DNA of 32,000 nucleotides, taken from assembly GCF_001735745.1 (NCBI RefSeq), contig NZ_CP017260.1, positions 360,001-392,000 on the forward strand. The letters are read 5' to 3'. The stretch comes from Formosa sp. Hel1_33_131. GTDB lineage: Bacteria; Bacteroidota; Bacteroidia; Flavobacteriales; Flavobacteriaceae. The position numbers and the translations under genes are program-made. Under the pieces are notes generated by a model, which saw only the letters and a list, made by a program, of their open reading frames with translations, did no database searches and was not told where the DNA came from. Shown here one piece after another: positions 1-16,738 of this stretch; position 1 is the first letter of the stretch, and every line of letters starts with the position of its first letter.

Positions 1-1104
1 TTGTTTTTCTGCATTATGCAATTTTATTTCTTGCATACCATTAATTAGCTCAATAACTTTAGATTGTTCTTGACTGATTTGAGAAAATTGCTTGTAATCT
101 AATTCTCTTTGCTTTTTTAGAAAAAACGAAATCCAAATAAAATATAAAATACTTCCAACTAAGAAAATTAAAAATATTTGAATATTATAATACAATAATA
201 TAACTCCAAAGGTTAATAAATTAAACATAGAAAATAGAACATTAAGTGTAGAGGACGTAAGGACTATTTCTATTCTTTTATGGTCATTTATTCTTTGCAA
301 AATATCACCTGTCATTCGAGTATCAAAAAAAGCTATAGGTAAACTCATTAGTTTTATAAAAAAATCTGAAACTAACGAAATGTTAATGCGAGTACTTAAA
401 TGTAATAGTATCCAACTTCTAATTATTTCTATTGATATTCGTCCAATAAATAAGGCTAATTGAGCAAAAAGAACAAGGTAAATAAAATGAATATCTTGAT
501 TTTTAATACCTACATCAACTATGCTTTGAGTTAAAAAAGGAAAAATTAATTGCAATAAACTACTTGCTACTAATCCAATTATTAACTGAACAATGTATTT
601 TTTATATTTAAGTAAATACTTTGTTAAAAAAGAAATATTTAATTTATGATTATTATCGAATTTAGATTCGTAAAACTTAGGTGTTGGCTCCATTAATAGT
701 ACCAAGCCTTCTTCAGTTTCATCTGAAGAATTATTACCAATCCAATGTTTAAGAAACTCGTCTTTAGTGTATTTTATTAAACCATAAGCTGGGTCAGAAA
801 TAAAATATGTATTATTTTTTATTTCGTATAAAACAACATAATGGTTTTTATTCCAATGTAAGATACATGGTAGAGGCGCTTCAGATAATCTATTTAAAGA
901 TATTTTAGCCCCCAAAGACCTTATGCCTATTTTTTCTAAAGCATCACTAATTCCTAAAATACTACTTCCTTGTCTTGTGGTTTCACTTAAATCTCTAAGT
1001 TCTTGAATAGAAATATTTTTTCCATAATATTTAGATATAATTTTTAGACATGTTGGACCACAATCTTTTAAGTCTGCTTGCTTATAAAAAGGAAATTTTT
1101 TCAA
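1..1104 (-). CDS. C39 peptidase-domain ABC transporter (double-glycine leader-cleaving peptide exporter). Only the N-terminal ~368 aa are present; the gene runs off the left window edge.
   Basis: Absent from the ORF track because it is partial and starts with TTG at 1104..1102, with an in-frame TAA two codons upstream. My translation is (M)KKFPFYKQADLKDCGPTCLKIISKYYGKNISIQELRDLSETTRQGSSILGISDALEKIGIRSLGAKISLNRLSEAPLPCILHWNKNHYVVLYEI... This is a canonical C39 N-terminus with the catalytic Cys (DCGPTC) and His (NHYVV). ABC membrane-domain helices follow (YIVQLIIGLVASSLLQLIFPFLTQSIVD...). Confidence 0.85.
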   Translation of the reverse strand, partial: MKKFPFYKQADLKDCGPTCLKIISKYYGKNISIQELRDLSETTRQGSSILGISDALEKIGIRSLGAKISLNRLSEAPLPCILHWNKNHYVVLYEIKNNTYFISDPAYGLIKYTKDEFLKHWIGNNSSDETEEGLVLLMEPTPKFYESKFDNNHKLNISFLTKYLLKYKKYIVQLIIGLVASSLLQLIFPFLTQSIVDVGIKNQDIHFIYLVLFAQLALFIGRISIEIIRSWILLHLSTRINISLVSDFFIKLMSLPIAFFDTRMTGDILQRINDHKRIEIVLTSSTLNVLFSMFNLLTFGVILLYYNIQIFLIFLVGSILYFIWISFFLKKQRELDYKQFSQISQEQSKVIELINGMQEIKLHNAEKQ

Positions 1105-3601: not shown

Positions 3602-3612
3602 ATTTTTTTTAT

Positions 3613-3877: not shown

Positions 3878-3897
3878 TAATTGAGAAAAACTATAGC

Positions 3898-4163: not shown

Positions 4164-6548
4164 TTAATTAAGTCTTTGTTTATCTTCGTTAAATTTAGCT
4201 ATCCTTCTTTGCTTTACATTTTTACTACCAATTTTATAAGTAAGTGAAAGTGTAAAATTTCTCATATCGTTATAAATACTTGAAGACTGTGTGAAATTCT
4301 GATACTGTTCTTCTCCTACATTTCTATTTTGTTTAAATAAATCATTTCCAGATATATTTACTTGAAGGTTCTCTTCAAGTAATCTAAATTTCAATCCTAA
4401 ATCAAGACTAGCTCTGTTTCTTGATTTAAAAAAACCATCTACGTTCGGAAAGCTTTGAAAGAAATTGATTGTAAAAAAGGATGTTCTTTTTTCGTTTAAA
4501 GAAATGGTGTTTTTTGTTGAAAAATAGACACCATAACCATCATAAGATTTTAATGTTTCATTTTCAAAATTTGAATTTGCTTTATTAAAATAAGTACTTA
4601 CAGAATTATAACTATTAACCCATTTAAAAAGTGTTAAACGATGGCTAACATCTAAACCATAAGTGTATTGATTATATAGGTTTTCCGGCTTCGTAATAAT
4701 CTCATTAGAATTTTCATTAGCTATAGTAATAAAGTCTATAACATCAATAAGCTTTGAACCATATAATATTAGCGATAAGTTGTTTTTATAAATGTATGAA
4801 AATTCTAAATTATGAGTAAATGAAGGCAATAAAAAAGGATCCCCCGATTCATAAGAATATGGGTCTGAATAAATTCTGAAAGGATTTAAATTTGAAAAAC
4901 CTGGTCTATCAATTCTTTTTGAATAAGACATAGATAGTGAATGATTTTCTTTTGGATCATATGAAATATATGCACTCGGAAAAATATTATTTAAATTATT
5001 AGTGTTTGTCTGGTTTAATGTAGGAGAGAAACCTTTTAAATAGGTATTTTCGTATCTTAAACCTATTTGTGCAATCCATTTTTCACTTAATTCTTTCTCT
5101 ATTGAAATATATAAGGCTGATGTTCTTTCTTCATATTCGAATTGATTAGACCTGTTTAAATTGATTATTGGAGTTCCATATGTTGTATCGTAGTAAAACA
5201 GACTACTATTATTATTTATAAAAGTTAATTTTCCTCCAACCTCTAAATCAAAAGCATCATAAGGTAGTGTGAAATCTGTTTTTAAAGATGCTACTTCATA
5301 TTTGTTATCAGAATTATTTAGAACAGATGTATTTAAACTATTAACACCATTACCCAGCCTATTAATACTATTGAAATCTATATCATTTGAACTATCTTTT
5401 ACTAAGTAATCGATATTTAAACTGAATTTCTTTCCAATACTATCTAGCTTTAAATCATAATATCCATTAATAGAATGAAAATTATACTTATTTTTATTTC
5501 TTGTTAACGTTGTTAAAATAGAGTCTAAAACAAAATTTTCCTTTTGAATAAAATTACTTATATTATTTCCTCTTTGACTAATATCCCAAAAACTACCGCT
5601 ATAAATAAATCCTGTTTCTGATTTTTCATTTATTTTATAATTCGAATTTAGATTTAGCATTAACCCTTTAGAAGAATCTTTTCTGTCTTTTGATGTATTC
5701 CAAAATCTAGAAGTGTATTCTACATCGTTTGTAGATATAGATTTTTTAGCTTCTGTATCAGCAGAGACGTTCAGTGATATATTTAATTTTTTAGTCGCAA
5801 ATTTCACATTACTGGTTGGTATAAAGGCAGCATATGTTCTTTGTATATATGTAGCTCCAACAGAACCATCCCATCCTAAGTTTGGATTTTTTTTAGTTAC
5901 AATATTAATTAAACCACTGTTTCCTTCAGCGTCATATTTAGCAGGAGGCGTTGTAATAACTTCTATTTTTGAAATATTGTCTGAACGAATACTTCTTAAA
6001 TATGCTTCTAAATCACTACTTGATAAATTGAGCACTCTTCCATCTATTAAAACATTAACACTACTTTTTCCAATAATTTTGATTCCACCACTTGAAACAT
6101 CAATTCTTGGAGTTCGTTGCAAAACTTCTAATCCATCAACTCCTTGAGAAACAATACTATTTTCAACATTAAAAATTAATCGGTCGACTTTTTTTTGGAT
6201 TAAAGGTTTTTTTGCTGAAATAACTATTTCATCTAATTTATTTTTACTGTGTATTAATGTAATATTACCTAAATCAATGTCTTTATTTTTAACTAGTACT
6301 TCTTTAACCCAGTCCTTATAACCAATAAAAGTAACTATTAAATTGTATTTTCCTTTTTTTGATTTTATTGTAAAAGAACCTTGATCGTTGGTTATAGAGC
6401 CTGAAACAAAATTATTATCAACGTCAGTCAATATAACATTCGCAAACTCTATATAGCTTATAGAGTCTTTTACCTTCCCCTTTACAATAATTTGAGAAAA
6501 AGAAAAAAAGGGAATAATTGAGGTTAAAGCTAATAATAAATACTTCAT
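4164..6548 (-). CDS. Outer-membrane beta-barrel / TonB-dependent-receptor-like protein with an N-terminal carboxypeptidase-regulatory-like domain
   Basis: 794 aa. There is a signal peptide (MKYLLLALTSIIPFFSFSQ), then a CarboxypepD_reg-like fold (IVKGKVKD...GSFTIKSKKGKYNLIVTFIGY). A plug-like segment follows (DEIVISAKKP...VDRLIFNVENS...LEVLQRTPRIDV...ISKIEVITTPPAKYDAEGNSGLINIVTKK), then a long barrel rich in aromatic and Asn residues. The C-terminus SLTYKIG plus a basic tail is typical of the Bacteroidota OMP_b-brl_3-type family. Confidence 0.8.
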   Translation of the reverse strand: MKYLLLALTSIIPFFSFSQIIVKGKVKDSISYIEFANVILTDVDNNFVSGSITNDQGSFTIKSKKGKYNLIVTFIGYKDWVKEVLVKNKDIDLGNITLIHSKNKLDEIVISAKKPLIQKKVDRLIFNVENSIVSQGVDGLEVLQRTPRIDVSSGGIKIIGKSSVNVLIDGRVLNLSSSDLEAYLRSIRSDNISKIEVITTPPAKYDAEGNSGLINIVTKKNPNLGWDGSVGATYIQRTYAAFIPTSNVKFATKKLNISLNVSADTEAKKSISTNDVEYTSRFWNTSKDRKDSSKGLMLNLNSNYKINEKSETGFIYSGSFWDISQRGNNISNFIQKENFVLDSILTTLTRNKNKYNFHSINGYYDLKLDSIGKKFSLNIDYLVKDSSNDIDFNSINRLGNGVNSLNTSVLNNSDNKYEVASLKTDFTLPYDAFDLEVGGKLTFINNNSSLFYYDTTYGTPIINLNRSNQFEYEERTSALYISIEKELSEKWIAQIGLRYENTYLKGFSPTLNQTNTNNLNNIFPSAYISYDPKENHSLSMSYSKRIDRPGFSNLNPFRIYSDPYSYESGDPFLLPSFTHNLEFSYIYKNNLSLILYGSKLIDVIDFITIANENSNEIITKPENLYNQYTYGLDVSHRLTLFKWVNSYNSVSTYFNKANSNFENETLKSYDGYGVYFSTKNTISLNEKRTSFFTINFFQSFPNVDGFFKSRNRASLDLGLKFRLLEENLQVNISGNDLFKQNRNVGEEQYQNFTQSSSIYNDMRNFTLSLTYKIGSKNVKQRRIAKFNEDKQRLN

Positions 6549-6607
6549 GTTTTTAATTGATTTGAGACTCTAAACTTACAACTAGATTCAACTTAAACAA
6601 AACTTAT

Positions 6608-6651
6608 GTAGTTGAAATTTATAAATTTCATGTCCGTATTTATAAATTTCA
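6608..6651. promoter_or_regulatory. Two copies of a palindromic operator in the divergent OMP/lanB promoter region
   Basis: GAAATTTATAAATTTC at 6614-6629 is a perfect 16-bp palindrome. The 14-mer ATTTATAAATTTCA recurs exactly 21 bp later (6617 and 6638). The same 14-mer is also found at 11591. Confidence 0.6.
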
Positions 6652-6755
6652 GCCTCTATAATTATTTATAAAACACTCATTTTGAGGTTTTTAAATTTAT
6701 TTTAGGAACTAATTATAAAATCCGTAGATTTACAGTCCCAAAACCTACTTAGTGC

Positions 6756-9008
6756 ATGTTAAAACCTAAAAACCCTTATACTTTTTTCAATACTTATTGT
6801 TTAAGAACACCTCTTTTACCATTGAATCGGGTTTTAAATGCACTACAAAAAAGAGGTTTTGAGGATGAGTCTCTAAAAGAGTATTGGCAAAACACTCATT
6901 TAAAAGAAGCTGTTTTTTTAGCATCGCCCTACCTTTTCTCTGAACTAGAATTACTATTTGAGGGAACAATCACTTCTGTAAAAAAAGCAGAAAAGTTAAA
7001 ACAAAGCTTTTTAAAATATGTTCTCAGAGCCTCCTCTCGTTGTACGCCTTTTGGACTGTTCTCTGGAGTCTCTTTAGGTCATTTTAATGATACAAGTTGT
7101 ATAGAACTAGAAACAACTAAAACCTTGAAACGCCGAACACGTTTGGATGTGAACTATATGGTTGCGCTCTCAAACTATTTAGAAAAAGAGCCCGTCATAA
7201 AAAACCAATTGGTGTTTTACCCCAACAGTTCGCTCTATAAAATTGCGGATCAATATCGATATATTGCATTTGAAATAGATGGTTTAAAACGCTCTTATGC
7301 TGTTGAAGGCATAGAGTATTCGGTTTATATAGAGACCGTCTTAAATGAAGCTAAAATGGGTAAAACCATTACTGAATTGGCCGTTACAATTACGGACGAA
7401 ACGATCACTGAAGAGGAAGCCACCCACTTTATTCATGAACTCATAGACAACCAGGTCTTAAGTAGTGAATTAGAACACTCTATTTCAGGAACTGATATGC
7501 TATCCCAAACACTAGTGACCTTAAAACAATTAAAACAGTGTGACTCTAATATACAAGACCTACTTAGCATTCAAAAAACACTTCAAAAATTAGATGACAC
7601 TGACAGAAATACCAGTGAAGATTATAAAAAATGTAATCCGATTTTAGAGGCCCTTGGCGTGCCTTATGAGACGAAAGATGTGTTTCAAACGGATCTTTTT
7701 ACAACGACTAAAAACAATGCTTTAAACAAAAAAGTAGCGCACGAATTACGCCGGGCTTTACCACTTTTAAGTAGCCTTAACAAAAAAGATCACAACCCTC
7801 ATTTAGAGCAATTCAAAAAAGCGTTTAAAGAGCGTTATGAAACAAGAAAAATTCCATTAGCTATGGCTTTGGATATAGAAATGGGAGTTGGCTACATTCA
7901 AAATGAAGCTGTTTCAAATACCGTTTCGTTTTTAAATGACATTACGCCTCAAACAGATCACTCCTCTTCTCAAAACTTCTCTTTATCAGAAATTGAAATT
8001 AGCATTCAAAAATTAATGTTTGATGCATTAAAGAATCAGCACTATAGCATTGAACTAAAGGAAGCAATTTTCGCGGATCGTGAAGTGTCTATAGATCATT
8101 TACCTGACACCCTTTCCGCACTCATTGAAGTGATTACTCTAAACAATGAAGAATGTGTTTACATACACTCTTTTGGAGGTTCCAATGGGGCTAATTTACT
8201 TGCTCGGTTTTGTGAGGAGACTGGAGAATTATTTGATTACGTTAAAGAAATGACCTGTATAGAACAGCAGATGAACCCACACAGTGTTTTAGTTGAACTC
8301 ATCCATTTGCCTGAAGCTAGAGTTGGAAATGTGATTAAAAGACCGCATTTAAGAGCTTATGAATTGCCCTATCTCGGCAAGTCTAATCTGCCGTTAGAAC
8401 AGCAAATTAATATTAATGATGTTTTAGTATTTATTAAAAACAACCGTATTGTTTTATGGTCAAAAAAATTAGACAAAGCCATTCTACCTCGTTTAACAAA
8501 TGCTCATAATTACACAAAAAATACGCTTCCTATCTATCATTTTTTATGTGATTTACAAACTCAAAATATTCAAAAAAAGCTTGGATTTTCTTGGGGCGCA
8601 CTCGCCAACAATCATTCCTTTTTACCTAGAGTGTGTTATAAAACCCTCATTCTTTCCAAAGCCACTTGGATTATTGAAACTAAAAAATTTCAATCTTTAT
8701 TTAAATTAGACAAAAACGGAGCGAACTTATTGGATTTAATAAGCGGGTGGAGAGCAACTATTCAAATGCCTCAATATGTTCAGTTAAAAGAAGCCGATAA
8801 TACGTTACTTATAAATCTCGAAAATACAACAATGCTTCATTTGTTATTCGATTCGGTTAAACGCAAAACACAGTTTATCTTAGAAGAATTTTTATTTACA
8901 GAAAAACCTATCGTAAAAAATGAGGATAATGATTTTTTTACGAATCAATTTGTAGTGTCATTTTACAATGAGGAAAAACTAAAAAAAGCTGTTAATTATG
9001 CAAACTAG
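6756..9008 (+). CDS. Lantibiotic dehydratase family protein (LanB N-terminal, tRNA-Glu-dependent glutamylation domain)
   Basis: 750 aa. The N-terminus NPYTFFNTYCLRTPLLPLN and the RCTPFGLFSGVSLG motif are hallmarks of the Lant_dehydr_N family. The size fits a stand-alone glutamylation domain. Confidence 0.85.
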   Translation: MLKPKNPYTFFNTYCLRTPLLPLNRVLNALQKRGFEDESLKEYWQNTHLKEAVFLASPYLFSELELLFEGTITSVKKAEKLKQSFLKYVLRASSRCTPFGLFSGVSLGHFNDTSCIELETTKTLKRRTRLDVNYMVALSNYLEKEPVIKNQLVFYPNSSLYKIADQYRYIAFEIDGLKRSYAVEGIEYSVYIETVLNEAKMGKTITELAVTITDETITEEEATHFIHELIDNQVLSSELEHSISGTDMLSQTLVTLKQLKQCDSNIQDLLSIQKTLQKLDDTDRNTSEDYKKCNPILEALGVPYETKDVFQTDLFTTTKNNALNKKVAHELRRALPLLSSLNKKDHNPHLEQFKKAFKERYETRKIPLAMALDIEMGVGYIQNEAVSNTVSFLNDITPQTDHSSSQNFSLSEIEISIQKLMFDALKNQHYSIELKEAIFADREVSIDHLPDTLSALIEVITLNNEECVYIHSFGGSNGANLLARFCEETGELFDYVKEMTCIEQQMNPHSVLVELIHLPEARVGNVIKRPHLRAYELPYLGKSNLPLEQQININDVLVFIKNNRIVLWSKKLDKAILPRLTNAHNYTKNTLPIYHFLCDLQTQNIQKKLGFSWGALANNHSFLPRVCYKTLILSKATWIIETKKFQSLFKLDKNGANLLDLISGWRATIQMPQYVQLKEADNTLLINLENTTMLHLLFDSVKRKTQFILEEFLFTEKPIVKNEDNDFFTNQFVVSFYNEEKLKKAVNYAN

Positions 9009-9858
9009 ATTTTTTTTAGGGGATGAATGGATTTACTATAAATTGTATTGTGGTAAACGAACAGCGGATCATATTCTTGTGGATATTATAAAGCCATTTA
9101 CTGAAAAACTATTAAAAGAAAACCTAATCACCAAATGGTTCTTTATTCGGTATCACGACCCTAACCATCATTTACGGGTGCGCTTTCATTGTGAAGATCT
9201 TTCTAAAATAGGGACGATTATTAATACCTTTAAAAATGCGATCGACCATCAAGTTGCTAATGACTTTATTTGGAAGGTTCAAACAGATACCTACCAAAGA
9301 GAAATTGAACGCTATGGGAAACTCACAATGATTGGATCAGAGAATCTGTTTTTTCATGACAGCAGCACTAGCATTAATGCTTTGAATTTGATTGAAGATG
9401 AGGAACTCTTATTTTTATTTGTTTTAAAATCCATAGATGCATTGTTAAGTGTTTTTGAATACGATTTAAAAGCTAAAATTAGTTTCTCTAAAGTGAACCT
9501 GACTTCTTATAGAAATGAGTTTAAAGCGGAGAAAAACTTCAGCAAACAGCTAAATAAAAAATATCAAAAATTAAGACCTAAAGTGGAATCGTTCATGGCT
9601 TTAAAAGAAAGTAGTGATTATGACGCTCTCTTAAACTTAATAACGACTAAGAATAGAGAAATCGAAACAATTAAAACACCTATTTTAGAGTTGCATAAAA
9701 ATAATAAATTAGAAGTTCCGTTAAATCATTTACTATCTAGTTATATACACATGATGGTCAACCGTCAATTTAGAGACAAACAACGTTTATTTGAATTGGT
9801 TTGTTATGATTGCCTATTTCGATATTACAACAGCCTATTTGCAAAACAATTAAATTAA
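8998..9858 (+). CDS. Thiopeptide-type bacteriocin biosynthesis domain protein (LanB C-terminal / SpaB_C glutamate-elimination domain)
   Basis: 286 aa. WIYYKLYCGKRTADHILVDIIKPF...KWFFIRYHDPNHHLRVRFH is the signature of Lant_dehydr_C. It overlaps the upstream gene by 11 nt, giving a split LanB as in thiopeptide systems. Confidence 0.8.
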   Translation: MQTRFFLGDEWIYYKLYCGKRTADHILVDIIKPFTEKLLKENLITKWFFIRYHDPNHHLRVRFHCEDLSKIGTIINTFKNAIDHQVANDFIWKVQTDTYQREIERYGKLTMIGSENLFFHDSSTSINALNLIEDEELLFLFVLKSIDALLSVFEYDLKAKISFSKVNLTSYRNEFKAEKNFSKQLNKKYQKLRPKVESFMALKESSDYDALLNLITTKNREIETIKTPILELHKNNKLEVPLNHLLSSYIHMMVNRQFRDKQRLFELVCYDCLFRYYNSLFAKQLN

Positions 9859-9864
9859 CTCAAC

Positions 9865-11541
9865 GTGAAGTATAAATTATCCCCCATATTTATCTTTCTA
9901 TTTCTGACTTCAACCCTTTGGAGCCAACAAACGGCTTTAAGTTATGAAGTTTTAGAAAACAATATTAAGACTTCAAAGTCAGATTCTATTCGTGAAATAT
10001 ATGCTTCGACGTTACTTTTAAAAGCAAAAAAAGAAAATAATGTTCTAAAAATTGCTGATGGCTATAATCATTTGTCAGAAATTAACTCCCACACTTTAAG
10101 TGGTTTAAAATATGCTGATAGTATTATTGACTTGACAGCTACATTAATAAATTCAAAATACCCTGCTGAAGGTTATCTTCAAAAAGGAATTCAGTTGTTT
10201 TATTTAGCAAAACATAATGAATCCTTAGACAATTATATTAGGGCTCTTAATGATTTTCAGGCAAATAATAATACTTATGGAAAAGTAAGAGTGAACCATT
10301 ATATAGGTCTATTAAAAAACAGTATAAATGAAGAGAAAGAAGCGTTAGAAATTTTTAAAAAAAATATTTCTTTTTTTGAAAGTTCAAAAAATAAACATTT
10401 ATACAAAAGACAATACTTAAAGTCCTTATTTGCAATTGTAGATTCTTATAACAGAAATAAAATATTAGATTCAGCAGAAATATATGGAAGAATGGGTATT
10501 AAGGAAAGCTTTCAAAGTCATGACAAGTATTTGTATAATTATTTTTTATTATCATATGGATCAACTAAAACTTTTAAGGGAGAATATAAAGTAGCGATTG
10601 ACAGTCTTATTAAAGGCACCAAATTATTAACAAATGAAAAGCTTGTAATAGCAGGAAGTTATTTGATTTTAAGTCAAGCTTTTGAAGGCCTAAAAGAGTA
10701 TTCAAAATCATTACTATATTTAGATAAAGTAGATTCATTATATCAAAAAAATCCTGAAACAATATTTCAAGCAAAGGAATCTTATAAGATTTTACTTAAG
10801 TATAGTCAAAAAGAAAATAATCCCCAAAAGCAATTAAATACAATTAAAAAACTTCTTAAAGTTGATAGTATTATTAATGTTAAACACAATCAGTTAAGTA
10901 AGAATATTGTAAAAAAACATGATACTCCAGAATTAATTTTAGAAAAAGAACGCATAATTAAACAATTGAATAATAGTTATTCTTTATCCAAAAATAAAAT
11001 TATTATTTTATCTATTGTCATTATCTTCTTAATTATCATTTTGCTTTATAGTATAAGAAAAAGCATAATTAATAAGAAAAAATTTGAAATTATTAAAGCA
11101 AAAATTAATTCCGATGTTAAAGAAGAAAACAAAGAAAATTTAATAAAGGTTACTACTACAACTACTATTACTACTGGAATACCCGAAGATTTAGTAAAAG
11201 AAATTATACTTAGTTTAGAGAAATTTGAAAGTTCAAATAAGTTTTCAAAAAAACATTATACATTAAACACCCTTGCAAAAGAACTAAAAACAAACAGCAC
11301 CTATTTATCTAAAGTAATAAATGCAACAAAAGAAGCAAATTTTGCTAATTATTTGAACAATTTAAAAGTTGATTTTGCTATTAAAAGGTTATCAAAGAAT
11401 AAGCAATTTAGAGCATATACAATAAAAGCTATTGCAGAGGATTCTGGTTTTAATAACGCACAATCATTTTCGGCTGCATTTCATAAAAAAACAGGTATTT
11501 ATCCATCATATTTTATTAAAGAACTTAATAATGAAAAATGA
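9865..11541 (+). CDS. Membrane-spanning one-component regulator: signal peptide, TPR-like repeats, one TM helix, C-terminal AraC-type HTH
   Basis: GTG start. The signal peptide is MKYKLSPIFIFLFLTSTLWSQQ. About 340 aa of helical-repeat sequence follow, then the TM helix IIILSIVIIFLIIILLYSI and a basic stretch RKSIINKKK. The C-terminus HYTLNTLAKELKTNSTYLSKVIN...IKAIAEDSGFNNAQSFSAAFHKKTGIYPSYF is an AraC/XylS HTH. Confidence 0.8.
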   Translation: MKYKLSPIFIFLFLTSTLWSQQTALSYEVLENNIKTSKSDSIREIYASTLLLKAKKENNVLKIADGYNHLSEINSHTLSGLKYADSIIDLTATLINSKYPAEGYLQKGIQLFYLAKHNESLDNYIRALNDFQANNNTYGKVRVNHYIGLLKNSINEEKEALEIFKKNISFFESSKNKHLYKRQYLKSLFAIVDSYNRNKILDSAEIYGRMGIKESFQSHDKYLYNYFLLSYGSTKTFKGEYKVAIDSLIKGTKLLTNEKLVIAGSYLILSQAFEGLKEYSKSLLYLDKVDSLYQKNPETIFQAKESYKILLKYSQKENNPQKQLNTIKKLLKVDSIINVKHNQLSKNIVKKHDTPELILEKERIIKQLNNSYSLSKNKIIILSIVIIFLIIILLYSIRKSIINKKKFEIIKAKINSDVKEENKENLIKVTTTTTITTGIPEDLVKEIILSLEKFESSNKFSKKHYTLNTLAKELKTNSTYLSKVINATKEANFANYLNNLKVDFAIKRLSKNKQFRAYTIKAIAEDSGFNNAQSFSAAFHKKTGIYPSYFIKELNNEK

Positions 11542-11581
11542 ATTCAAGTTGTTGATTTAAAAAGTCTTGGCTAATTATTTT

Positions 11582-11604
11582 GTTGTTGATATTTATAAAT
11601 TTCA
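11582..11604. promoter_or_regulatory. Third copy of the palindromic operator, upstream of peptide P4
   Basis: GTTGTTGATATTTATAAATTTCA matches 6608-6630 at 21 of 23 positions. The 16-mer at 11588-11603 is 15/16 identical to the perfect palindrome. GTTGATATTTATAAATTTCAAC (11585-11606) is itself a 22-bp near-palindrome. It lies 65 nt upstream of the P4 ATG. Confidence 0.6.
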
Positions 11605-11668
11605 ACATATAAAATAGCATTAAATCAAAATTATAGCAGTAGATTTATAAAACTCTAAATTTAAAATT

Positions 11669-11815
11669 ATGAAAAAAACAGAATTAAAAAAAGAAAAACT
11701 TGGAATTAAAAAATTTCAAATTTCAAAAATCAACAACCCTCAATTAATAATTGGTGGGAATGCTAATTTAGGTGATGATGATGACGGCGATCATCCAACA
11801 CTAGTAACTAAATAG
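11669..11815 (+). CDS. Small GG-leader peptide P4 (48 aa)
   Basis: Hand translation: MKKTELKKEKLGIKKFQISKINNPQLIIGG|NANLGDDDDGDHPTLVTK*. The leader resembles P1-P3 (KFQISKI...LIIGG versus NFQFEKL...LQNIAGG). It has its own operator upstream and a strong terminator downstream. It is below the ORF-track cutoff. Confidence 0.7.
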   Translation: MKKTELKKEKLGIKKFQISKINNPQLIIGGNANLGDDDDGDHPTLVTK

Positions 11816-11860
11816 AAAAAACACACACCATATTCTAATTTATTATGGTGTGTGTTTTTT
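11816..11860 (+). terminator. Rho-independent terminator / attenuator after P4
   Basis: ACACACACCATA (11821-11832) and TATGGTGTGTGT (11844-11855) form an exact 12-bp stem with an 11-nt loop. A T-run follows (to 11860) and an A-run precedes it. Confidence 0.75.
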
Positions 11861-11875
11861 AAATTAATAAACCCT

Positions 11876-14053
11876 ATGAACTATAAATCTATTGCTATTT
11901 TAATTCTATGTATTTTAATTATGCAATGTAAAAATAAGAAAGAATTAGTGTTAGCACCAATTAATGTTGTTGTTGATGAAATTCATGGACAAAGAATAGA
12001 AGATCCGTATCGTTATATGGAAAATATTGATGATAGTATTTATATAAATTGGTTAAAAGGTCAAAAAGAAAATAAAGAATCAGTAGTAGGTAATATTTCT
12101 AATAGAGATAATTTAAAATTAAAAATAGAAAAGTTTCAAGAAAGGACTCCTGAAAAAATCTCAAAACTAACAATCATGGATAATGATGTTTACTTTTATT
12201 TAAAAGAGAACACAACATCTAAAGTAAAAAAACTGTATTCAAGAGATGGCTTTAAAGGAGAAGAAGTTTTATTATATAATCCTGAAAACTTTGATAATGA
12301 ACATCCTTATGTAATAAATTATATTAAACCTAGTTGGGATACTTCAAAAGTAGTTATAGGCTTAACAAAAAATGACGAAGAATTTTCAATATTAAAAATC
12401 CTTGATGTAAAAACTAAAAATTTAGTTGGAGATATTAAAATAACTAATACACTTCCAACTTCTCTAGGAGGTGTTAAATGGTTGCCTGATGATTCTGGTA
12501 TTATTTATGTAAATGTACCAGTAATTGATTCTAAATCTAAAAAATATTTACACAATTCGGAAGTTGTACTATATAGATTTAATGATAACCCTAAAGAATC
12601 TCCCACTGTTATTTTTTCAAAAAAGGAGAATCCAAAACTGAAAATAAAGGAAGAAGATTTCCCGTTAATTTACTTAGACAACCAAAATGTTGAATATATT
12701 ATTGGAGTGGTTACTAGAGCTTCAAGATATAGAGATACTTATTATATAAAAATAGATGAACTTAATAATAAAAAAATTAAATGGGAGCCATTATTTAAAA
12801 AAGAAGAAAAGATTAAACGCTTTATTGTTACAAAAGATGAAATCATTTATATGACTTCAAAAACAACTCCCAATTTTCAAATATGTAAAACCTCACTAAG
12901 TAATCCTGATTTTGAAAATCCACAAGTTTTAGTTTATGAGAATACTAAAGAAGTTATTACAGATTTTGTTATAACAAAACAAGGCTTGTTTTTCGTAAAA
13001 ATAAAAAATGGTGTTGATGCAAAACTTTATAAAATAGAAAATAATCAAGAAAAAAATATCGAGATCCCAAAACCTTCAGGAAGTATAAATGTATCCTCCA
13101 AAAATGAAAACTCTAATGATTTATGGATATCGATTGATGGGTGGACGCATAAAAAAGAGACCTATAAATATGATTATGATAAAAGTGTATTTATCCCTCA
13201 AAATTTATACCCAGTAGCAGAATATTCGTTACTCAATGATGTGGTTGTTAAAGAAATTGAAGTACCATCGTATGATGGTACATTAGTTCCATTATCTGTA
13301 ATTTATAAAAATAGCATTAAATTAAATGGAGAAAACAGAATGTTACTTACTGGCTATGGCGCTTATGGCATAACTGATAAACCTGTGTTAGACGACTATT
13401 TACTAAACTGGATTAATGAAGGAGGAATCTATGCTTTAGCACATGTGAGAGGTGGAGGAGAAAAAGGAGATGCATGGCATAAAGAAGGGTTTAAAACAAC
13501 AAAACCAAATACATGGAAGGACTTTATTTCGTGTACTGAATATTTGATTGATAAAGAATATACTTCAAATAAAAATTTAGCTGTTTGGAGCGGAAGTGCT
13601 GGAGGAATACTTGTAGGTAGAGCGATTACTGAACGTCCAGATTTATATGCTGCCGCAATAATACGGGTCGGATTACTAAATACTTTACGTTCAGAGTTCG
13701 CTCCAAACGGAAAAAATAATATTAAAGAATTTGGAACAATTAAAGATTCATTAGAATTTAAATCTCTATTAGAAATGGATGCGTTTCACAACATAAAAGA
13801 TGGTGTTGAGTATCCAGCAGTTTACTTAACAGGAGGTATGAATGATGCTAGAGTTGCTGTTTGGCAACCTAGCAAATTTGCTGCAAAATTGCAAAAAGCA
13901 AATGCTTCTGAAAATCCTATTATTTTAGATATTGATTTTGATGGTGGTCATGGATTTGATGCAACTTCAAATAAAAAAAATAATGAATTAGCAGATATAC
14001 TTTCTTTTGCACTCTGGCAAACTGGACATCCAGATTATCAATTGAATAGATAG
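11876..14053 (+). CDS. Prolyl oligopeptidase (S9A family), lipoprotein, copy 1
   Basis: I prefer ATG 11876 (MNYKSIAILILCILIMQCKNK, signal plus lipobox-like Cys) over the track's GTG 11852, which lies inside the terminator stem. The N-terminal beta-propeller region and C-terminal hydrolase domain carry an intact triad context: GSAGG (Ser), GGMNDARV (Asp), DGGHG (His). Confidence 0.9.
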   Translation: MNYKSIAILILCILIMQCKNKKELVLAPINVVVDEIHGQRIEDPYRYMENIDDSIYINWLKGQKENKESVVGNISNRDNLKLKIEKFQERTPEKISKLTIMDNDVYFYLKENTTSKVKKLYSRDGFKGEEVLLYNPENFDNEHPYVINYIKPSWDTSKVVIGLTKNDEEFSILKILDVKTKNLVGDIKITNTLPTSLGGVKWLPDDSGIIYVNVPVIDSKSKKYLHNSEVVLYRFNDNPKESPTVIFSKKENPKLKIKEEDFPLIYLDNQNVEYIIGVVTRASRYRDTYYIKIDELNNKKIKWEPLFKKEEKIKRFIVTKDEIIYMTSKTTPNFQICKTSLSNPDFENPQVLVYENTKEVITDFVITKQGLFFVKIKNGVDAKLYKIENNQEKNIEIPKPSGSINVSSKNENSNDLWISIDGWTHKKETYKYDYDKSVFIPQNLYPVAEYSLLNDVVVKEIEVPSYDGTLVPLSVIYKNSIKLNGENRMLLTGYGAYGITDKPVLDDYLLNWINEGGIYALAHVRGGGEKGDAWHKEGFKTTKPNTWKDFISCTEYLIDKEYTSNKNLAVWSGSAGGILVGRAITERPDLYAAAIIRVGLLNTLRSEFAPNGKNNIKEFGTIKDSLEFKSLLEMDAFHNIKDGVEYPAVYLTGGMNDARVAVWQPSKFAAKLQKANASENPIILDIDFDGGHGFDATSNKKNNELADILSFALWQTGHPDYQLNR

Positions 14054-14099: not shown

Positions 14100-16268
14100 A
14101 TGAAAATCATTAGATTAAAACTATTACTTTTAGTTGTGTGTGTTTTTAGTTGTAAAACTAACAACAATACATCTATAGAAATGTTGCCAGAAAAAGAAGT
14201 GGTTGAGGAATATTTTGGAACGACTGTTAAAGATTCTTATAAATATATGGAAAACCTCAATGATACTATCGTTTTAAATTGGTATAAACAACAAAGTAAC
14301 TATGCTAAGAATAAAATTGATAAGATTCACAATCGAAATAAAATTTTGAAGTTTCAAAATATTATAACTAACAATACATCTAAAATTTCAAATATTTTAA
14401 TAACTAATAATAACCTATATTTTTATTTAAAGAATCATAATGACACAAAAGAGCTCTTTTATAGAGAAGGGATTCATGGTGAGGAGTATTTTTTATTTAA
14501 TCCTGAAAAACATAAAAAAGGAAGTGCTATAAATTATATTGCTCCTAGTTGGGATGGATCAAAAGTAGCAATAGCTATGACTAAAGATGACTTAGAAATT
14601 GGCAATATCATTGTTTTAGATGTATCTAATAAAAAACTATACAACGAATCCATAAATAATTGCTGGCCTTCAGCCTTAGGTGGAATAAGATGGCTTGCTG
14701 ATAATTCTAGATTTACCTACGAATATATCCCCGTTATTGATAAAAAAGAAAAGAATTATTTATTTAATACCGAAACTCGTTTACATGTTTTGGGAGAAAA
14801 CCCTGTTAACGACAGAATATTATTTTCAAATAAAAACAATCCTGAGATTGAAATAAAAGAAGAAGATTTCCCTGAGGTTTCTATTAGCAACGAAAAAAGC
14901 AATTACATATTTGGGAGTGTTTGGGGGGCTAGCTATTATGCTGATTACTACTCCTCCTCTATTGAAAATATTAACAACCAAAAAATCACATGGAAGCCTC
15001 TTTTTAAAAAAGAAGATTTAATAAAGCGGTTTTATTTAGAGGGTGATTATATAGTTTATTTATCCGCAAAAAAAGCTAAAAATTTTGAGATCTGTAGAAC
15101 TTCATTAATTAATCCAAATTTTGAAGATCCAGAAATTTTAGTCTCCGAAGATGAATCATCTGTAATCACAGATTTAACTTTAACAAGCAAAGGATTGTTT
15201 TTTGTTAAAACAAAGAATGGAGTTGAGGCTAAGTTATATCAATTTATTAATAAGAATAAGATCAATAATATTACTCTACCCAAAGAAGCTGGTTATATTA
15301 ATGTTTCTTCTAATGGGAATTTATTCCCTGACTTGAGAATTGAAATTAAAGGTTGGTTGTCCGACAAAGAACGTTATCAATTTAATCATAAAACAAATCA
15401 GTTTACTAAAGAACAATTAGCCAAAGAAAATGGCAATAATGATGAATTATTTGATGGAATTATAATTGAAGAAATAGAAATCATATCGCATGATGGAGTG
15501 AAAGTTCCATTATCACTAATTTATAACAAAGACCTAGAATTAAATGGCCAAAATAGAGTGCTAATAAAAGGATATGGAGCATATGGAATAACTCAAAAAC
15601 CTTTTTTGGATCCTTATATACTGCCTTGGCTAAAAGAAGGTGGGATTTATGCGATGGCGCATGTAAGAGGAGGAGGAGAAAAAGGCGACTTCTGGCATAA
15701 AAGTGGGTATAAAGAAACAAAACCTAATACATGGAAAGACCTAATAGCCTGTTCGGAATATCTTATCCATAAAAAGTACTCTTCTAGTAGTAAAACTGTT
15801 ATTTATAGCGGCAGTGCTGGGGGTATTTTAATAGGTCGAGCCATAACTGAAAGACCAGATTTGTTTGCAGCAGCTATTATAAGAGTTGGAGTACTAAATA
15901 CTTTAAGGTATGAGTTTTCACCAAATGGAAAAAATAATACTAAAGAGTTAGGTTCAGTCCAAGATTCCATTGGATTTAAAGGTTTGCTTGAGATGGATGC
16001 TTATCAGCATATTGAAAAAGGAGTAAAATACCCCGCAGTATACTTGACAGCTGGATTAAATGATTCTAGAGTATCCGTTTGGCAACCAGGGAAATTTGCC
16101 GCTAAACTACAAGCTGCAACCACTTCAAATAATCCAGTATTTCTTAATGTAGATTCAGAAGGAGGACATGGACTTGATACTTCTAAAAATAAGAAAAATA
16201 AAGAAATTGCCGATATCCTCTCTTTTGCATTATGGCAAACAGGGCATCCAGATTTTCAGTTGAAATAA
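14100..16268 (+). CDS. Prolyl oligopeptidase (S9A family), lipoprotein, copy 2 (tandem paralogue)
   Basis: I prefer ATG 14100 (MKIIRLKLLLLVVCVFSCKTNN, lipobox Cys) over the track's TTG 14094. The protein is collinear with copy 1, sharing long identical runs (GYGAYGIT, AHVRGGGEKGD, TKPNTWKD, GRAITERPDL, ADILSFALWQTGHPD). Triad contexts GSAGG, GLNDSRV and EGGHG are intact. Confidence 0.9.
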   Translation: MKIIRLKLLLLVVCVFSCKTNNNTSIEMLPEKEVVEEYFGTTVKDSYKYMENLNDTIVLNWYKQQSNYAKNKIDKIHNRNKILKFQNIITNNTSKISNILITNNNLYFYLKNHNDTKELFYREGIHGEEYFLFNPEKHKKGSAINYIAPSWDGSKVAIAMTKDDLEIGNIIVLDVSNKKLYNESINNCWPSALGGIRWLADNSRFTYEYIPVIDKKEKNYLFNTETRLHVLGENPVNDRILFSNKNNPEIEIKEEDFPEVSISNEKSNYIFGSVWGASYYADYYSSSIENINNQKITWKPLFKKEDLIKRFYLEGDYIVYLSAKKAKNFEICRTSLINPNFEDPEILVSEDESSVITDLTLTSKGLFFVKTKNGVEAKLYQFINKNKINNITLPKEAGYINVSSNGNLFPDLRIEIKGWLSDKERYQFNHKTNQFTKEQLAKENGNNDELFDGIIIEEIEIISHDGVKVPLSLIYNKDLELNGQNRVLIKGYGAYGITQKPFLDPYILPWLKEGGIYAMAHVRGGGEKGDFWHKSGYKETKPNTWKDLIACSEYLIHKKYSSSSKTVIYSGSAGGILIGRAITERPDLFAAAIIRVGVLNTLRYEFSPNGKNNTKELGSVQDSIGFKGLLEMDAYQHIEKGVKYPAVYLTAGLNDSRVSVWQPGKFAAKLQAATTSNNPVFLNVDSEGGHGLDTSKNKKNKEIADILSFALWQTGHPDFQLK

Positions 16269-16516: not shown

Positions 16517-16738
16517 ATGGACATACAAACACGAAAAATAGAATTTGTACAGGCATTTTTAAAACTGCAAAGTGAGGAAATGATTTCTCTTTTTGAAAGC
16601 ATTCTAAAATCGGGAAATAAAGATGATTTTTATCCAATGAGTATAGATGAATTGAATAAACGTATTGACAAATCAGAAAAAGATTTTGAAACTGGGAAAT
16701 CTAAAAACCATGATGAAGTTTTTGCAAAATACAGCTAA
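16517..16738 (+). CDS. Putative antitoxin (73 aa) of a type II TA pair
   Basis: A small acidic protein immediately upstream of a ParE/RelE-like toxin, overlapping it in a TAATG junction. The assignment rests on context; I do not recognise a specific family. Confidence 0.55.
   Translation: MDIQTRKIEFVQAFLKLQSEEMISLFESILKSGNKDDFYPMSIDELNKRIDKSEKDFETGKSKNHDEVFAKYS

What the first reader, a model, noticed from the sequence alone, without database searches (positions are those of the whole stretch)
9865..11860. Possible peptide-signalling module: periplasm-facing TPR sensor fused through one TM helix to an AraC HTH, next to a tiny exported peptide with its own operator and terminator
Seen in the sequence:
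- The regulator has a cleavable-looking signal peptide, a long TPR-like region, one TM helix followed by RKSIINKKK (positive-inside), then an AraC HTH. The repeat domain should therefore face the periplasm and the HTH the cytoplasm.
- Immediately downstream lies P4 (leader ...NNPQLIIGG, core NANLGDDDDGDHPTLVTK), preceded by a palindromic operator and followed by a 12-bp-stem terminator.
- Two lipoprotein prolyl oligopeptidases come next. These could trim after the core Pro (GDHP/TLVTK) or the leader Pro.

Inference: this resembles an autoinducing peptide loop of export, periplasmic processing, sensing by a TPR domain and transcriptional feedback. It is analogous in logic to Firmicute TPR-HTH (RRNPP-type) systems, but with a transmembrane topology and in a Bacteroidota background.
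Basis: inference. Interest (0 to 1): 0.7.

Follow-up and report, generated by a model that had tools for sequence, protein, structure and literature searches.

The report
Membrane AraC regulator controlling RiPP peptide
In a marine Formosa bacterium, a membrane-spanning regulator with an outward-facing repeat domain sits next to a small exported peptide gene and shares a conserved DNA control site with it; this three-part cassette recurs across marine Flavobacteriaceae and may be a peptide feedback loop, though peptide sensing itself is unproven.

Summary
The regulator has a signal peptide, a periplasmic TPR superhelix, one TM helix and a cytoplasmic AraC domain. P4, the palindrome, the hairpin and two S9 lipoprotein peptidases are all present.

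The window is Formosa sp. Hel1_33_131, and P4 is FORMB_03290.

Context changes the reading:
- A split LanB dehydratase lies directly upstream.
- A C39-ABC exporter (PCAT) lies at the window edge.
- P4 carries the Bacteroidota LanA-type LxLxKx5L…GG leader.

So this is the regulatory core of a RiPP cluster, not a free-standing pheromone module.

In 79 related loci, 114 of 121 GG-leader ORFs lie just downstream of a regulator homologue, typically about 120 bp away. The palindrome TTGAWATTTATAAATWTCAA is conserved upstream of the peptide, 47-48 bp before a −7 box. It also occurs upstream of the regulator's own operon. A clade with a divergent DNA-binding domain uses a different operator.

Natural variants show that regulator, peptide core and peptidase are exchanged as cassettes inside a conserved LanB and leader frame.

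Peptide sensing by the TPR domain is plausible but untested. One variant has an identical regulator with a different core tail, so the tail cannot be the ligand. Peptidase linkage tracks acidic cores, not proline. I found no published description of this cassette.

The parts
9865..11541 (+). Regulator REG (FORMB_03280), 558 aa. Signal peptide is about residues 1-20 (nt 9865-9924). Periplasmic TPR solenoid is residues 27-341 (nt 9943-10887). TM helix is residues 379-397 (nt 10999-11055). Cytoplasmic AraC DNA-binding domain is residues 441-555 (nt 11185-11529).
   Evidence: ORF. Pfam HTH_18 E=4e-12. AlphaFold2 pLDDT 88. Foldseek TPR superhelix matches. Hydropathy and Q-rule counts. 246 homologues and 499 genome relatives.
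11586..11605 (.). Operator palindrome TTGATATTTATAAATTTCAA upstream of P4. Its centre is 73 bp before the ATG.
   Evidence: Conserved in related loci, with the centre a median 79 bp from the peptide ATG (IQR 77-82). Operator type co-varies with the DNA-binding-domain clade.
11640..11647 (+). Bacteroidota-type -7 promoter box TAGATTTA (consensus TAnnTTTG), 48 bp downstream of the operator centre.
   Evidence: The same 47-48 bp spacing is seen in 20 of 39 operator-bearing loci.
11669..11815 (+). P4 (FORMB_03290), a 48-aa precursor. Leader is residues 1-30, MKKTELKKEKLGIKKFQISKINNPQLIIGG (nt 11669-11758). Core is NANLGDDDDGDHPTLVTK (nt 11759-11812).
   Evidence: Leader HMM family. Exact copies are called as genes on 22 or more metagenome contigs and in the NCBI genome.
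11816..11860 (+). Strong hairpin (17-bp stem, 11-nt loop) between P4 and POP1. Likely a terminator or attenuator.
   Evidence: -22.7 kcal/mol, z=-6.5. Similar hairpins follow 44 of 121 peptide ORFs, against 12 of 120 random windows.
11876..14053 (+). POP1 (FORMB_03300), an S9 serine peptidase of 725 aa with a lipoprotein signal (…LIMQC).
   Evidence: Pfam. Start codon. Protein detected in published proteomes. Absent from the otherwise 99% identical variant L088.
14100..16268 (+). POP2 (FORMB_03310), an S9 serine peptidase of 722 aa with a lipoprotein signal (…VFSC).
   Evidence: Proteomics. The orthologue in L088 is 96% identical.
6612..6652 (.). Two operator copies 21 bp apart (16-mer cores at 6614-6629 and 6635-6650) in the divergent promoter region between the OMP gene and lanB-N.
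   Evidence: Tandem sites 21 bp apart upstream of REG or LanB-N recur in many loci. That copy 1 lies 47 bp from a minus-strand -7-like box (TAAGTTTA, + strand 6571-6578) is my own reading of the sequence.
6756..9008 (+). Split LanB, glutamylation part (Lant_dehydr_N), 750 aa.
   Evidence: Pfam E=2e-132. Lies directly upstream of REG in 16 loci.
8998..9858 (+). Split LanB, elimination part (Lant_dehydr_C / TIGR03891), 286 aa.
4164..6548 (-). Outer-membrane beta-barrel (OMP_b-brl_3 / TonB-dependent-receptor-like), transcribed divergently from lanB.
   Evidence: The family recurs in 11 loci.
2..1104 (-). N-terminal 367 aa of a peptidase-C39 ABC exporter (PCAT), cut off by the window edge. Presumed GG-leader protease and exporter.
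   Evidence: 74% identical to the L009 PCAT, which carries Peptidase_C39, ABC_membrane and ABC_tran. In L091 a PCAT and a membrane-fusion protein directly follow the peptidase.

Best explanation
The region is the regulatory core of a RiPP-type peptide production cluster in Formosa sp. Hel1_33_131.

REG is a single-pass, membrane-tethered one-component regulator. It has a cleaved signal peptide, a periplasmic TPR superhelix of about 8 repeats, one TM helix and a cytoplasmic AraC DNA-binding domain.

REG recognises a conserved 20-bp palindrome, TTGAWATTTATAAATWTCAA, placed 47-48 bp upstream of the -7 box. From there it activates two sets of promoters (inferred):
- The P4 promoter. POP1 and POP2 are expressed by read-through of the hairpin.
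- The divergent promoters at 6.6 kb. These drive lanB-N, lanB-C and REG itself (autoregulation), and probably also the OMP operon.

P4 is a LanA-type precursor. The proposed pathway is:
1. The split LanB recognises the leader and acts on the two Thr residues of the core (inferred).
2. The PCAT cuts after GG and exports the core (inferred from family knowledge).
3. The S9 lipoprotein peptidases process the product outside the cytoplasm (inferred).

The most parsimonious input for a cluster-embedded, autoregulated, outward-facing sensor is the exported product itself. That would be autoinduction, as in nisin/NisK or ComC/ComD. This last step is unproven. If it is true, recognition cannot depend on the C-terminal tail of the core.
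For: Gene content:
- Split LanB, REG, P4 and two S9 peptidases are present.
- A PCAT lies at the window edge.

Cassette conservation:
- 114 of 121 GG-leader ORFs found in 1.6 Mb of related loci lie within 1500 bp downstream of a REG gene on the same strand.
- 66 of 97 REG genes have such an ORF, with a median gap of about 120 bp.

Operator:
- 137 matches against about 25 in shuffles. They are concentrated upstream of the peptide and of the REG/LanB operon, often as two sites 21 bp apart.
- There is a fixed 47-48 bp spacing to a -7 box.
- Four loci use a different upstream repeat (TGAAAACAGAC, twice, 21 bp apart). Their REG DNA-binding domains form a distinct group, 65-83% identical to each other and at most 63% to all others.

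Leader tracks LanB, not REG:
- In L091, LanB is about 91.5% identical at the protein level (92.8% DNA) and the leader 90%, while REG is 46%.
- Related leaders weakly match the class I lanthipeptide leader model NF038153 (P4 itself gave no hit).
- They fit the LxLxKx5L…GG motif described for Bacteroidetes LanAs (PMC7268733).

Structure and expression:
- The sensor is a peptide-binding-type TPR superhelix.
- POP1, POP2 and, weakly, REG are detected as proteins in culture (PMC6246565 supplements).
Against: - No experiment links REG to the operator, or the peptide to the sensor.
- AraC domains usually read asymmetric sites, so a short perfect palindrome is not the textbook target.
- About one third of REG genes have no detectable adjacent peptide. 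One genome has seven tandem REG paralogues without any peptide.
- L088 has an identical REG with a different core tail.
- Many Aquimarina loci have three different cores behind one REG. That looks more like product arrays than like one signal per receptor.
- The P4 core has no Cys, and no LanC was seen in the window. The chemistry performed by LanB is therefore unclear.
- P4 and LanB were not detected in the published proteomes.
Confidence: 0.62

Rival explanations
1. Dedicated quorum-sensing module. Here P4's main role is a pheromone. It is exported, trimmed by the peptidases to a short active peptide, and bound by the periplasmic TPR domain. That switches on the AraC output and a wider regulon.
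For: - Operator sites at both the regulator operon and the peptide promoter give positive-feedback wiring.
- The sensor has a TPR fold of the peptide-binding kind.
- Many Aquimarina loci carry only REG plus peptides among housekeeping genes, with no tailoring enzyme nearby.
- L091 shows a mosaic: a hypervariable sensor (36% identical) and core, flanked by conserved LanB, HTH, promoter and leader. This resembles pherotype loci.
- Sensor similarity correlates with core similarity after controlling for the HTH (partial rho 0.28, against 0.03 for HTH with core).
Against: - P4 has a LanA-type leader that co-varies with LanB, and it sits in a RiPP cluster.
- In the 32-kb window the operator occurs only inside the cluster, so no wider regulon is visible.
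- An identical REG pairs with a different core tail in L088.
- Up to three distinct cores follow one REG.
- The correlation test is weak and is confounded by shared ancestry.
Confidence: 0.2
2. REG controls the cluster but senses something other than its own peptide, such as a competitor's peptide, an envelope or nutrient cue, or the state of the export or processing machinery. The P4 product is then an antimicrobial or otherwise functional RiPP with no feedback.
For: - The sensor has a strongly conserved repeat signature. A 'DS' dipeptide recurs every 44 residues and falls on invariant or near-invariant columns. Meanwhile the adjacent cores are hypervariable.
- An identical REG pairs with different cores.
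- REG paralogues exist without peptides.
Against: - Strict adjacency and shared operator wiring between REG and the peptide gene hold across genera.
- REG, core and peptidase are exchanged together in L091.
- In characterised lantibiotic and bacteriocin systems, the cluster sensor typically detects the product. This is from my own knowledge of NisRK, SpaRK and the Blp and Pln systems.
Confidence: 0.3
3. The palindrome is not REG's site. It is bound by another factor, or it is just an AT-rich promoter element, and the REG-peptide adjacency is incidental.
For: - AraC domains normally bind asymmetric sites.
- The sequence is AT-rich in a genome of 33% GC.
Against: - The motif is enriched about 5-fold over block shuffles, and almost all copies lie at REG or peptide promoters.
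- The spacing to the -7 box is rigid.
- REG is the only DNA-binding protein common to all loci.
- Operator type switches together with the DNA-binding-domain clade.
Confidence: 0.05
4. P4 is a chance ORF and is not translated.
For: - It has no Pfam or NCBIfam hit.
- It was not seen in the proteomes.
Against: - The leader is conserved at the protein level across genera while the DNA differs.
- Start position, promoter box and following hairpin are all conserved.
- Variants keep the reading frame and the leader while the core changes.
Confidence: 0.02

Closest known systems
Lantibiotic autoinduction by cluster-encoded sensors (NisRK, SpaRK)
   Same: - A sensor with an extracytoplasmic domain is encoded inside a LanB-containing cluster.
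- The same regulator controls the precursor gene promoter and the biosynthetic operon.
- A hairpin follows the precursor gene.
   Different: - One polypeptide (TPR-TM-AraC) replaces the histidine kinase plus response regulator, so there is no phosphorelay.
- Here LanB is split, there is no LanC and the core has no Cys.
- The host is Gram-negative, so the sensor sits in the periplasm.
- Product sensing is unproven here.
GG-leader pheromones exported by PCATs and sensed at the membrane (ComC/ComAB/ComDE, BlpC/BlpAB/BlpHR)
   Same: - A double-glycine leader peptide is paired with a C39-ABC exporter.
- An outward-facing membrane receptor is present.
- The peptide gene and its receptor gene are adjacent.
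- The mature part is hypervariable behind a conserved leader.
   Different: - The receptor is a DNA-binding one-component protein, not a kinase.
- The leader is of the Bacteroidota LanA type (LxLxKx5L…GG) and comes with a dehydratase.
- S9 peptidases are added.
RRNPP receptors (Rap, NprR, PlcR, PrgX, AimR) and Rgg
   Same: - A TPR-type domain is coupled to a DNA-binding output.
- A small peptide gene lies next to the receptor.
- Phage phi3T Rap with its pheromone appears among the structural matches (rank 37).
   Different: - RRNPP receptors are cytoplasmic, have an N-terminal XRE-type HTH or phosphatase domain, and rely on re-imported peptides (Opp). They occur in Firmicutes and their phages.
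- Here the TPR domain is periplasmic, the HTH is a C-terminal AraC type, and the peptide is PCAT-exported.
- This locus is not a member.
Bitopic membrane one-component regulators (ToxR, CadC, TcpP; VtrA/VtrC 'co-component' systems, PMC9214523)
   Same: - They are single-pass membrane proteins.
- They bind DNA on the cytoplasmic side while sensing in the periplasm.
   Different: - Those have an N-terminal OmpR-type winged helix and no signal peptide (N-in topology).
- REG is inverted (N-out, with a cleaved signal peptide), uses an AraC domain, and has a TPR sensor.
Bacteroidota class I lanthipeptide clusters (pinensin type) as surveyed by Walker et al. 2020 (PMC7268733)
   Same: - LanB is split into glutamylation and elimination proteins.
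- LanA leaders carry LxLxKx5L ending in GG.
- A C39 protease/exporter is encoded nearby.
   Different: - No LanC was seen in the window and there is no Cys in the P4 core.
- The TPR-TM-AraC regulator, its operator and the S9 peptidases are not mentioned in the passages of that survey that I retrieved (0 occurrences of 'AraC').
Prolyl-oligopeptidase-family proteases in RiPP clusters (FlaP; 'LanPB' of class III clusters, PMC7268733)
   Same: S9 peptidases are encoded next to a lanthipeptide-type precursor and presumed to process it.
   Different: - Here the leader already has a GG/PCAT cleavage site.
- The peptidases are lipoproteins outside the cytoplasm.
- Their presence correlates with acidic cores rather than with Pro.

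Membership tests
AraC/XylS transcription regulators | C-terminal DNA-binding domain of about 100 aa with two HTH motifs (Pfam HTH_18 / HTH_AraC). | tested here: met
   HTH_18 matches residues 470-551 with E=4e-12, 46.7 bits against a cut-off of 33.6. The model shows a helical domain at 441-555 with pLDDT of about 90.
RRNPP quorum-sensing receptors | Soluble cytoplasmic receptor with no signal peptide and no TM helix. | tested here: not met
   REG has an N-terminal signal peptide and one TM helix at 379-397 followed by a basic stretch.
RRNPP quorum-sensing receptors | TPR-type peptide-binding domain. | tested here: met
   A solenoid of about 8 repeats spans residues 27-341. Foldseek matches TPR superhelices, including Rap with its pheromone at rank 37.
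RRNPP quorum-sensing receptors | N-terminal XRE-type HTH (or Rap-type phosphatase domain) preceding the TPR domain. | tested here: not met
   The only DNA-binding domain is a C-terminal AraC type.
RRNPP quorum-sensing receptors | Signal peptide secreted via Sec or PptAB and re-imported by an oligopeptide permease to act in the cytoplasm. | tested here: not met
   P4 has a double-glycine leader and the cluster encodes a C39-ABC exporter. The sensor domain lies outside the cytoplasm.
Class I lanthipeptide biosynthetic cluster | LanB dehydratase (glutamylation plus elimination domains). | tested here: met
   Lant_dehydr_N E=2e-132 and Lant_dehydr_C E=2e-64 lie on two adjacent ORFs. TIGR03891 matches with E=2e-66.
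Class I lanthipeptide biosynthetic cluster | LanC cyclase. | tested here: not met
   None of the 19 window ORFs scanned with Pfam has a LanC-like domain. Three arg-operon ORFs and three antisense ORFs were not scanned. The rest of the genome could not be searched.
Class I lanthipeptide biosynthetic cluster | Precursor with a recognisable LanA leader, and both Ser/Thr and Cys in the core. | tested here: inconclusive
   The leader fits LxLxKx5L…GG (PMC7268733) and co-varies with LanB. However, P4 itself gives no hit to NF038153, and relatives reach only 10-16 bits against a cut-off of 22. The core has two Thr residues but no Cys.
PCAT-exported double-glycine peptides | Leader ending in GG and a peptidase-C39 ABC transporter in the locus. 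| tested here: met
   The leader ends …LIIGG. A PCAT N-terminus with the DCGPTC motif lies at 2-1104(-) and is 74% identical to a full PCAT.
ToxR/CadC-type bitopic regulators | Single TM helix separating a cytoplasmic DNA-binding domain from a periplasmic sensor. | tested here: met
ToxR/CadC-type bitopic regulators | N-terminal OmpR-type winged-helix DNA-binding domain. | tested here: not met
   The DNA-binding domain is a C-terminal AraC type, and the N-terminus is a signal peptide.
Peptide autoinduction loop (functional class) | The mature peptide binds the sensor and induces its own promoter. | not testable with these tools
   Only the wiring (shared operator, adjacency) and the fold are shown. 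L088 constrains any ligand to features shared by two different cores.

The most novel reading that the evidence does not exclude
This would be a peptide-based cell-cell signalling system native to Gram-negative Bacteroidota.
- GG-leader peptides are modified by LanB, exported by a PCAT and trimmed by S9 lipoprotein peptidases.
- They are then read in the periplasm by the TPR domain of a membrane-tethered AraC regulator, which autoinduces the cluster.
- Exchangeable sensor, core and peptidase cassettes would define 'pherotypes' within natural populations of bloom-associated Formosa and in the many paralogous loci of Aquimarina, Kordia and Tenacibaculum.
Probability: 0.25. Interest if true: 0.85.

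Novelty: new variant of a known kind. Interest (0 to 1): 0.62.

Why it matters
**Why it would matter if true**
- Peptide pheromone or autoinduction systems are textbook for Gram-positives but essentially undescribed in Bacteroidota.
- This regulator family is large. There are 499 relatives among representative genomes and several paralogues per genome. It comes with a defined operator and a defined promoter geometry, which makes the question directly testable.
- It occurs in Formosa sp. Hel1_33_131, a cultivated model for North Sea algal-bloom flavobacteria. Natural variants of the core/peptidase and sensor cassettes already co-occur in metagenomes.

**Value even if the peptide is not the ligand**
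- The operator gives a practical handle for finding and switching on silent RiPP clusters in marine Flavobacteriaceae.
- The LanB-without-LanC, Cys-free, poly-Asp cores point to unexplored peptide chemistry.

Tried and rejected
- **Generic promoter/terminator scan.** It gave no enrichment of sigma-70 sites. It missed the hairpin because the loop is 11 nt. Bacteroidota promoters needed a custom -7 box search.
- **Rfam scan of 6400-12100.** No credible RNA family was found.
- **Pfam and NCBIfam on P4.** No hit for P4 itself. Relatives gave only sub-threshold matches to the lanthipeptide leader model.
- **Idea that the peptidases cut after Pro.** Rejected as a general rule. Pro occurs in 16/22 peptidase-linked cores and 39/44 unlinked cores.
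- **Mirror-tree style test of sensor against core similarity.** It gave a positive partial correlation. I treat it as weak, because shared ancestry and the larger dynamic range of the sensor can produce it.
- **RRNPP membership.** Rejected: topology, HTH type and export route all fail.
- **Spurious-ORF reading of P4.** Rejected on conservation.
- **Look-up of P0017.** It found no contig.
- **One Pfam batch.** It failed on a coordinate error and was re-planned.
- **Seven literature searches.** None turned up a description of a TPR-TM-AraC regulator paired with GG-leader peptides. The library is incomplete, so this is absence of evidence only.


Full report
**1. Observation**

- **Regulator.** The ORF at 9865-11541 encodes 558 aa.
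  - It starts with a hydrophobic N-terminus followed by Gln-Gln.
  - It has a single internal hydrophobic peak at residues 379-397, followed by RKSIINKKK.
  - It has a C-terminal AraC domain: Pfam HTH_18, residues 470-551, E=4e-12.
- **Structure.** An AlphaFold2 model built on 83 homologues is confident, with mean pLDDT 88.
  - It shows an all-helical solenoid at residues 27-341.
  - One long helix at 344-420 contains the TM segment.
  - A short disordered linker leads to the DNA-binding domain at 441-555.
- **Fold matches.** Foldseek against the PDB returns 8-repeat TPR superhelices that bind extended peptides (LGN/Pins, E~2e-6), designed consensus TPRs and OGT. Phage phi3T Rap bound to its pheromone ranks 37.
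- **Signal peptide.** Of 83 homologues, 68 have the N-terminal hydrophobic segment, and 64 of these have a Gln just behind it. From my own knowledge this fits the Bacteroidota signal-peptidase-I 'Q-rule'. Sensor outside and HTH inside is therefore the only consistent topology.
- **Other features.**
  - P4 (11669-11815) and the palindrome (11584-11607) are as described.
  - The hairpin (11816-11860) folds at -22.7 kcal/mol, z=-6.5.
  - The two S9 peptidases with lipoprotein-type N-termini are real.
  - No Rfam family matches the region.

**2. Identity and context**

P4 is identical to 'hypothetical protein FORMB_03290' of Formosa sp. Hel1_33_131. The same locus appears on many marine metagenome contigs.

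The surroundings change the picture.
- Immediately upstream lie the two halves of a split LanB dehydratase: Lant_dehydr_N, E=2e-132, and Lant_dehydr_C/TIGR03891, E~1e-64.
- Divergently transcribed from these are:
  - an outer-membrane barrel;
  - three further GG-type leader peptides;
  - an ATP-grasp ligase;
  - an rSAM/SPASM enzyme;
  - at the window edge, the N-terminus of a peptidase-C39 ABC exporter.
- No LanC was found among the 19 window ORFs I scanned.

P4's leader (KLGIKKFQISKI…IIGG) fits the LxLxKx5L…GG motif reported for Bacteroidetes class I LanAs that use C39 proteases (PMC7268733). Relatives of P4 give weak, sub-threshold hits to the lanthipeptide leader model NF038153. P4 itself gives none.

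**3. Comparative genomics**

The regulator family is large and confined to marine Flavobacteriaceae: Tenacibaculum, Kordia, Aquimarina, Polaribacter and Formosa. Databases annotate it only generically. I analysed 79 genome loci plus two metagenome loci.

- **Peptide adjacency.** A leader HMM built from these loci found 121 GG-leader ORFs in 1.6 Mb.
  - 114 lie within 1500 bp downstream of a regulator gene on the same strand.
  - The other 7 sit beside additional LanB pairs.
  - 66 of 97 regulator genes have such a peptide, with a median stop-to-start gap of about 120 bp (IQR 110-131).
- **Variable accessories.**
  - Split LanB lies directly upstream in 16 loci.
  - A dedicated S9 peptidase family lies directly downstream in 25.
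  - PCAT, HlyD and OEP genes occur in others.
  - Some have rSAM plus ATP-grasp.
  - Many Aquimarina loci have only the regulator plus one to three peptides among housekeeping genes.
- **Conclusion.** The invariant unit is regulator → peptide.

**4. The operator is real and conserved**

- Aligning the regions upstream of the peptides exposes a palindrome with consensus TTGAWATTTATAAATWTCAA in Kordia, Aquimarina, Tenacibaculum, Polaribacter and the window.
- Its 16-mer core has 137 matches (up to 2 mismatches) in the loci, against about 25 in block shuffles.
  - 37 are centred 79 bp (IQR 77-82) before the first peptide ATG.
  - Most of the rest lie upstream of the regulator gene, or of lanB-N where LanB precedes it. 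These are often two copies 21 bp apart.
- In the window the motif occurs without mismatch at 11586-11605. It occurs as a tandem pair at 6612-6652, and nowhere else at 1 mismatch or fewer.
- A Bacteroidota -7 box (TAnnTTT[GA]) lies exactly 47-48 bp downstream of the operator centre in 20 of 39 loci, including the window (TAGATTTA, 11640-11647).
- At 6.6 kb, my reading of the sequence places operator copy 1 the same 47 bp from a minus-strand -7-like box facing the OMP operon.
- Four loci lack the palindrome and instead have TGAAAACAGAC, twice and 21 bp apart in two of them.
  - Their regulators' DNA-binding domains are each other's nearest neighbours (65-83% identical).
  - They are at most 63% identical to all others, with visible changes in both recognition helices.
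  - This co-variation is the best in-silico evidence that the regulator reads the operator. It rests on one clade.

**5. Transcription unit**

Only about 15 nt separate the hairpin from the POP1 start, so POP1 and POP2 have no room for a promoter of their own. They must be read through from the P4 promoter. Comparable hairpins follow 44 of 121 peptide ORFs, against 12 of 120 random windows. From my own knowledge, this is the usual arrangement for a highly expressed precursor ahead of its enzymes. Published proteomes of this strain detect both peptidases, and sporadically the regulator. They do not detect P4 or LanB (PMC6246565 supplements).

**6. Natural experiments**

| Feature compared with the window | L088 (same species) | L091 |
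|---|---|---|
| Regulator | 100% identical | 46% overall (sensor 36%, HTH 67%) |
| LanB (amino acid) | 98.7-99.7% | about 91.5% (92.8% DNA) |
| Promoter region | identical | conserved (about 79% DNA through promoter and leader) |
| Leader | 29 of 30 identical | 90% |
| Core | diverges from about residue 39: NKNLADDDEVRTGTIGD, no Pro | different |
| Peptidases | POP1 absent; POP2 orthologue 96% | 52-57% identical, followed by PCAT and a membrane-fusion protein |

- **L088.** Homology to the window stops at 11784 and resumes at 14095. The 2.3-kb segment made of core tail, hairpin and POP1 is therefore a cassette.
- **L091.** Values are.
- **What follows from these two variants.**
  - The leader tracks LanB, which supports P4 being the LanB substrate.
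  - Regulator, core and peptidase are exchanged as a module.
  - If the regulator senses the peptide, it cannot be reading the C-terminal tail.
- **Three further checks.**
  - Across loci, peptidase linkage is unrelated to Pro in the core (16/22 vs 39/44).
  - Peptidase linkage is associated with acidic runs (11/22 vs 4/44, p=4e-4).
  - Sensor similarity correlates with core similarity after controlling for the HTH (partial rho 0.28). I regard this as weak evidence.

**7. Mechanism**

- **Shown.** The architecture and topology of the regulator. The conserved cassette of regulator, operator, -7 box, GG-leader peptide and hairpin. Its embedding in a LanB/PCAT cluster.
- **Inferred with good support.** The regulator binds the operator. 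It activates the peptide-peptidase unit and its own operon.
- **Inferred from family knowledge.**
  - LanB dehydrates Thr43/Thr46.
  - The PCAT cleaves after GG and exports the core.
  - The lipoprotein S9 peptidases process the product outside the cytoplasm.
- **Inferred by analogy only.** The TPR domain senses the product. I rate the overall model at about 0.6, and the product-sensing step on its own at about 0.4.

**8. Comparison with known systems**

- In logic it works like lantibiotic autoinduction (NisRK) or GG-pheromone systems (ComC/ComAB/ComDE). In hardware it resembles inverted ToxR-like bitopic regulators.
- It is not an RRNPP member. The cytoplasmic location, the N-terminal XRE HTH and the Opp re-import route all fail the test.
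- It is only an incomplete class I lanthipeptide cluster, since no LanC was found and the core has no Cys.
- Seven literature searches found no description of this regulator family, its operator, or its pairing with GG-leader peptides.

**9. Verdict**

This is a new variant of a known kind: a cluster-situated regulator of a RiPP, possibly with product feedback. It has an undescribed one-component architecture and a well-defined operator that is conserved in marine Flavobacteriaceae. Interest is moderate to high. It would be high if periplasmic peptide sensing is demonstrated.

Noticed in passing
window 1117-4062 (-): There is a second RiPP set here: an rSAM/SPASM enzyme (1117-2289), an ATP-grasp ligase (2412-3425) and three leader peptides (3437-3601, 3613-3780, 3898-4062). 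The middle peptide ends its leader in AAGQ rather than GG. Cores are rich in Thr, Asp and Cys. Hits to TIGR04149 and PF14406 are weak. This looks like a Bacteroidota graspetide/rSAM-type cluster sharing the PCAT.
   Followed up: partly
L001 end (9697-9716), L002 end (9680-9698), L093 start (1-35): Three independent metagenome contigs break exactly at the operator palindrome. Probably the repeated, perfectly palindromic site, flanked by hypervariable cassettes, collapses assembly graphs.
   Followed up: partly
L066 9965-21696 (Leptobacterium flavescens): Seven paralogues of the TPR-TM-AraC regulator lie in direct tandem, with no detectable GG-leader peptide between them.
   Followed up: no
L053, L054, L059, L060, L064, L065, L067, L069, L072, L077 (Aquimarina): The regulator plus three different ~65-70-aa precursors that share a C-terminal …STKTxP… motif are flanked by LytTR response regulators and TPR-containing histidine kinases. 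This suggests a second regulatory layer.
   Followed up: no
cores of peptides in L008-L081 and window 11759-11812: Otherwise unrelated cores repeatedly carry T[KQW]T, DTIDTQ or poly-Asp motifs near the C-terminus. Peptidase-linked cores are enriched in acidic runs and depleted in Cys. The combination of Thr, Lys and poly-Asp is reminiscent of graspetide donor/acceptor residues.
   Followed up: partly
window 9865-10887 (regulator residues 85, 202, 246, 290, 334): A 'DS' dipeptide recurs with a 44-residue period in the sensor repeats and falls on invariant or near-invariant alignment columns. It may be a conserved ladder lining the solenoid. I could not check which face it lies on.
   Followed up: no
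window 16517-17052 (+): A ParE-family toxin (104 aa) is preceded by a 73-aa ORF, a likely antitoxin. The pair lies directly after POP2, at the cluster boundary.
   Followed up: no
window 17237-25387 (-) and 27199-31869 (-): An arginine biosynthesis operon (argininosuccinate lyase, M20 deacylase, acetylglutamate kinase, carbamoyltransferase, aminotransferase) lies here. So does a 1556-aa Laminin_G_3 protein with a type IX secretion C-terminal sorting domain.
   Followed up: no
L070 11691; L074 11571; L075 11615 and 11636; L081 11686 and 11707: An alternative upstream element, TGAAAACAGAC (two copies 21 bp apart in L075 and L081), replaces the palindrome in a clade of regulators with a divergent DNA-binding domain.
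   Followed up: yes
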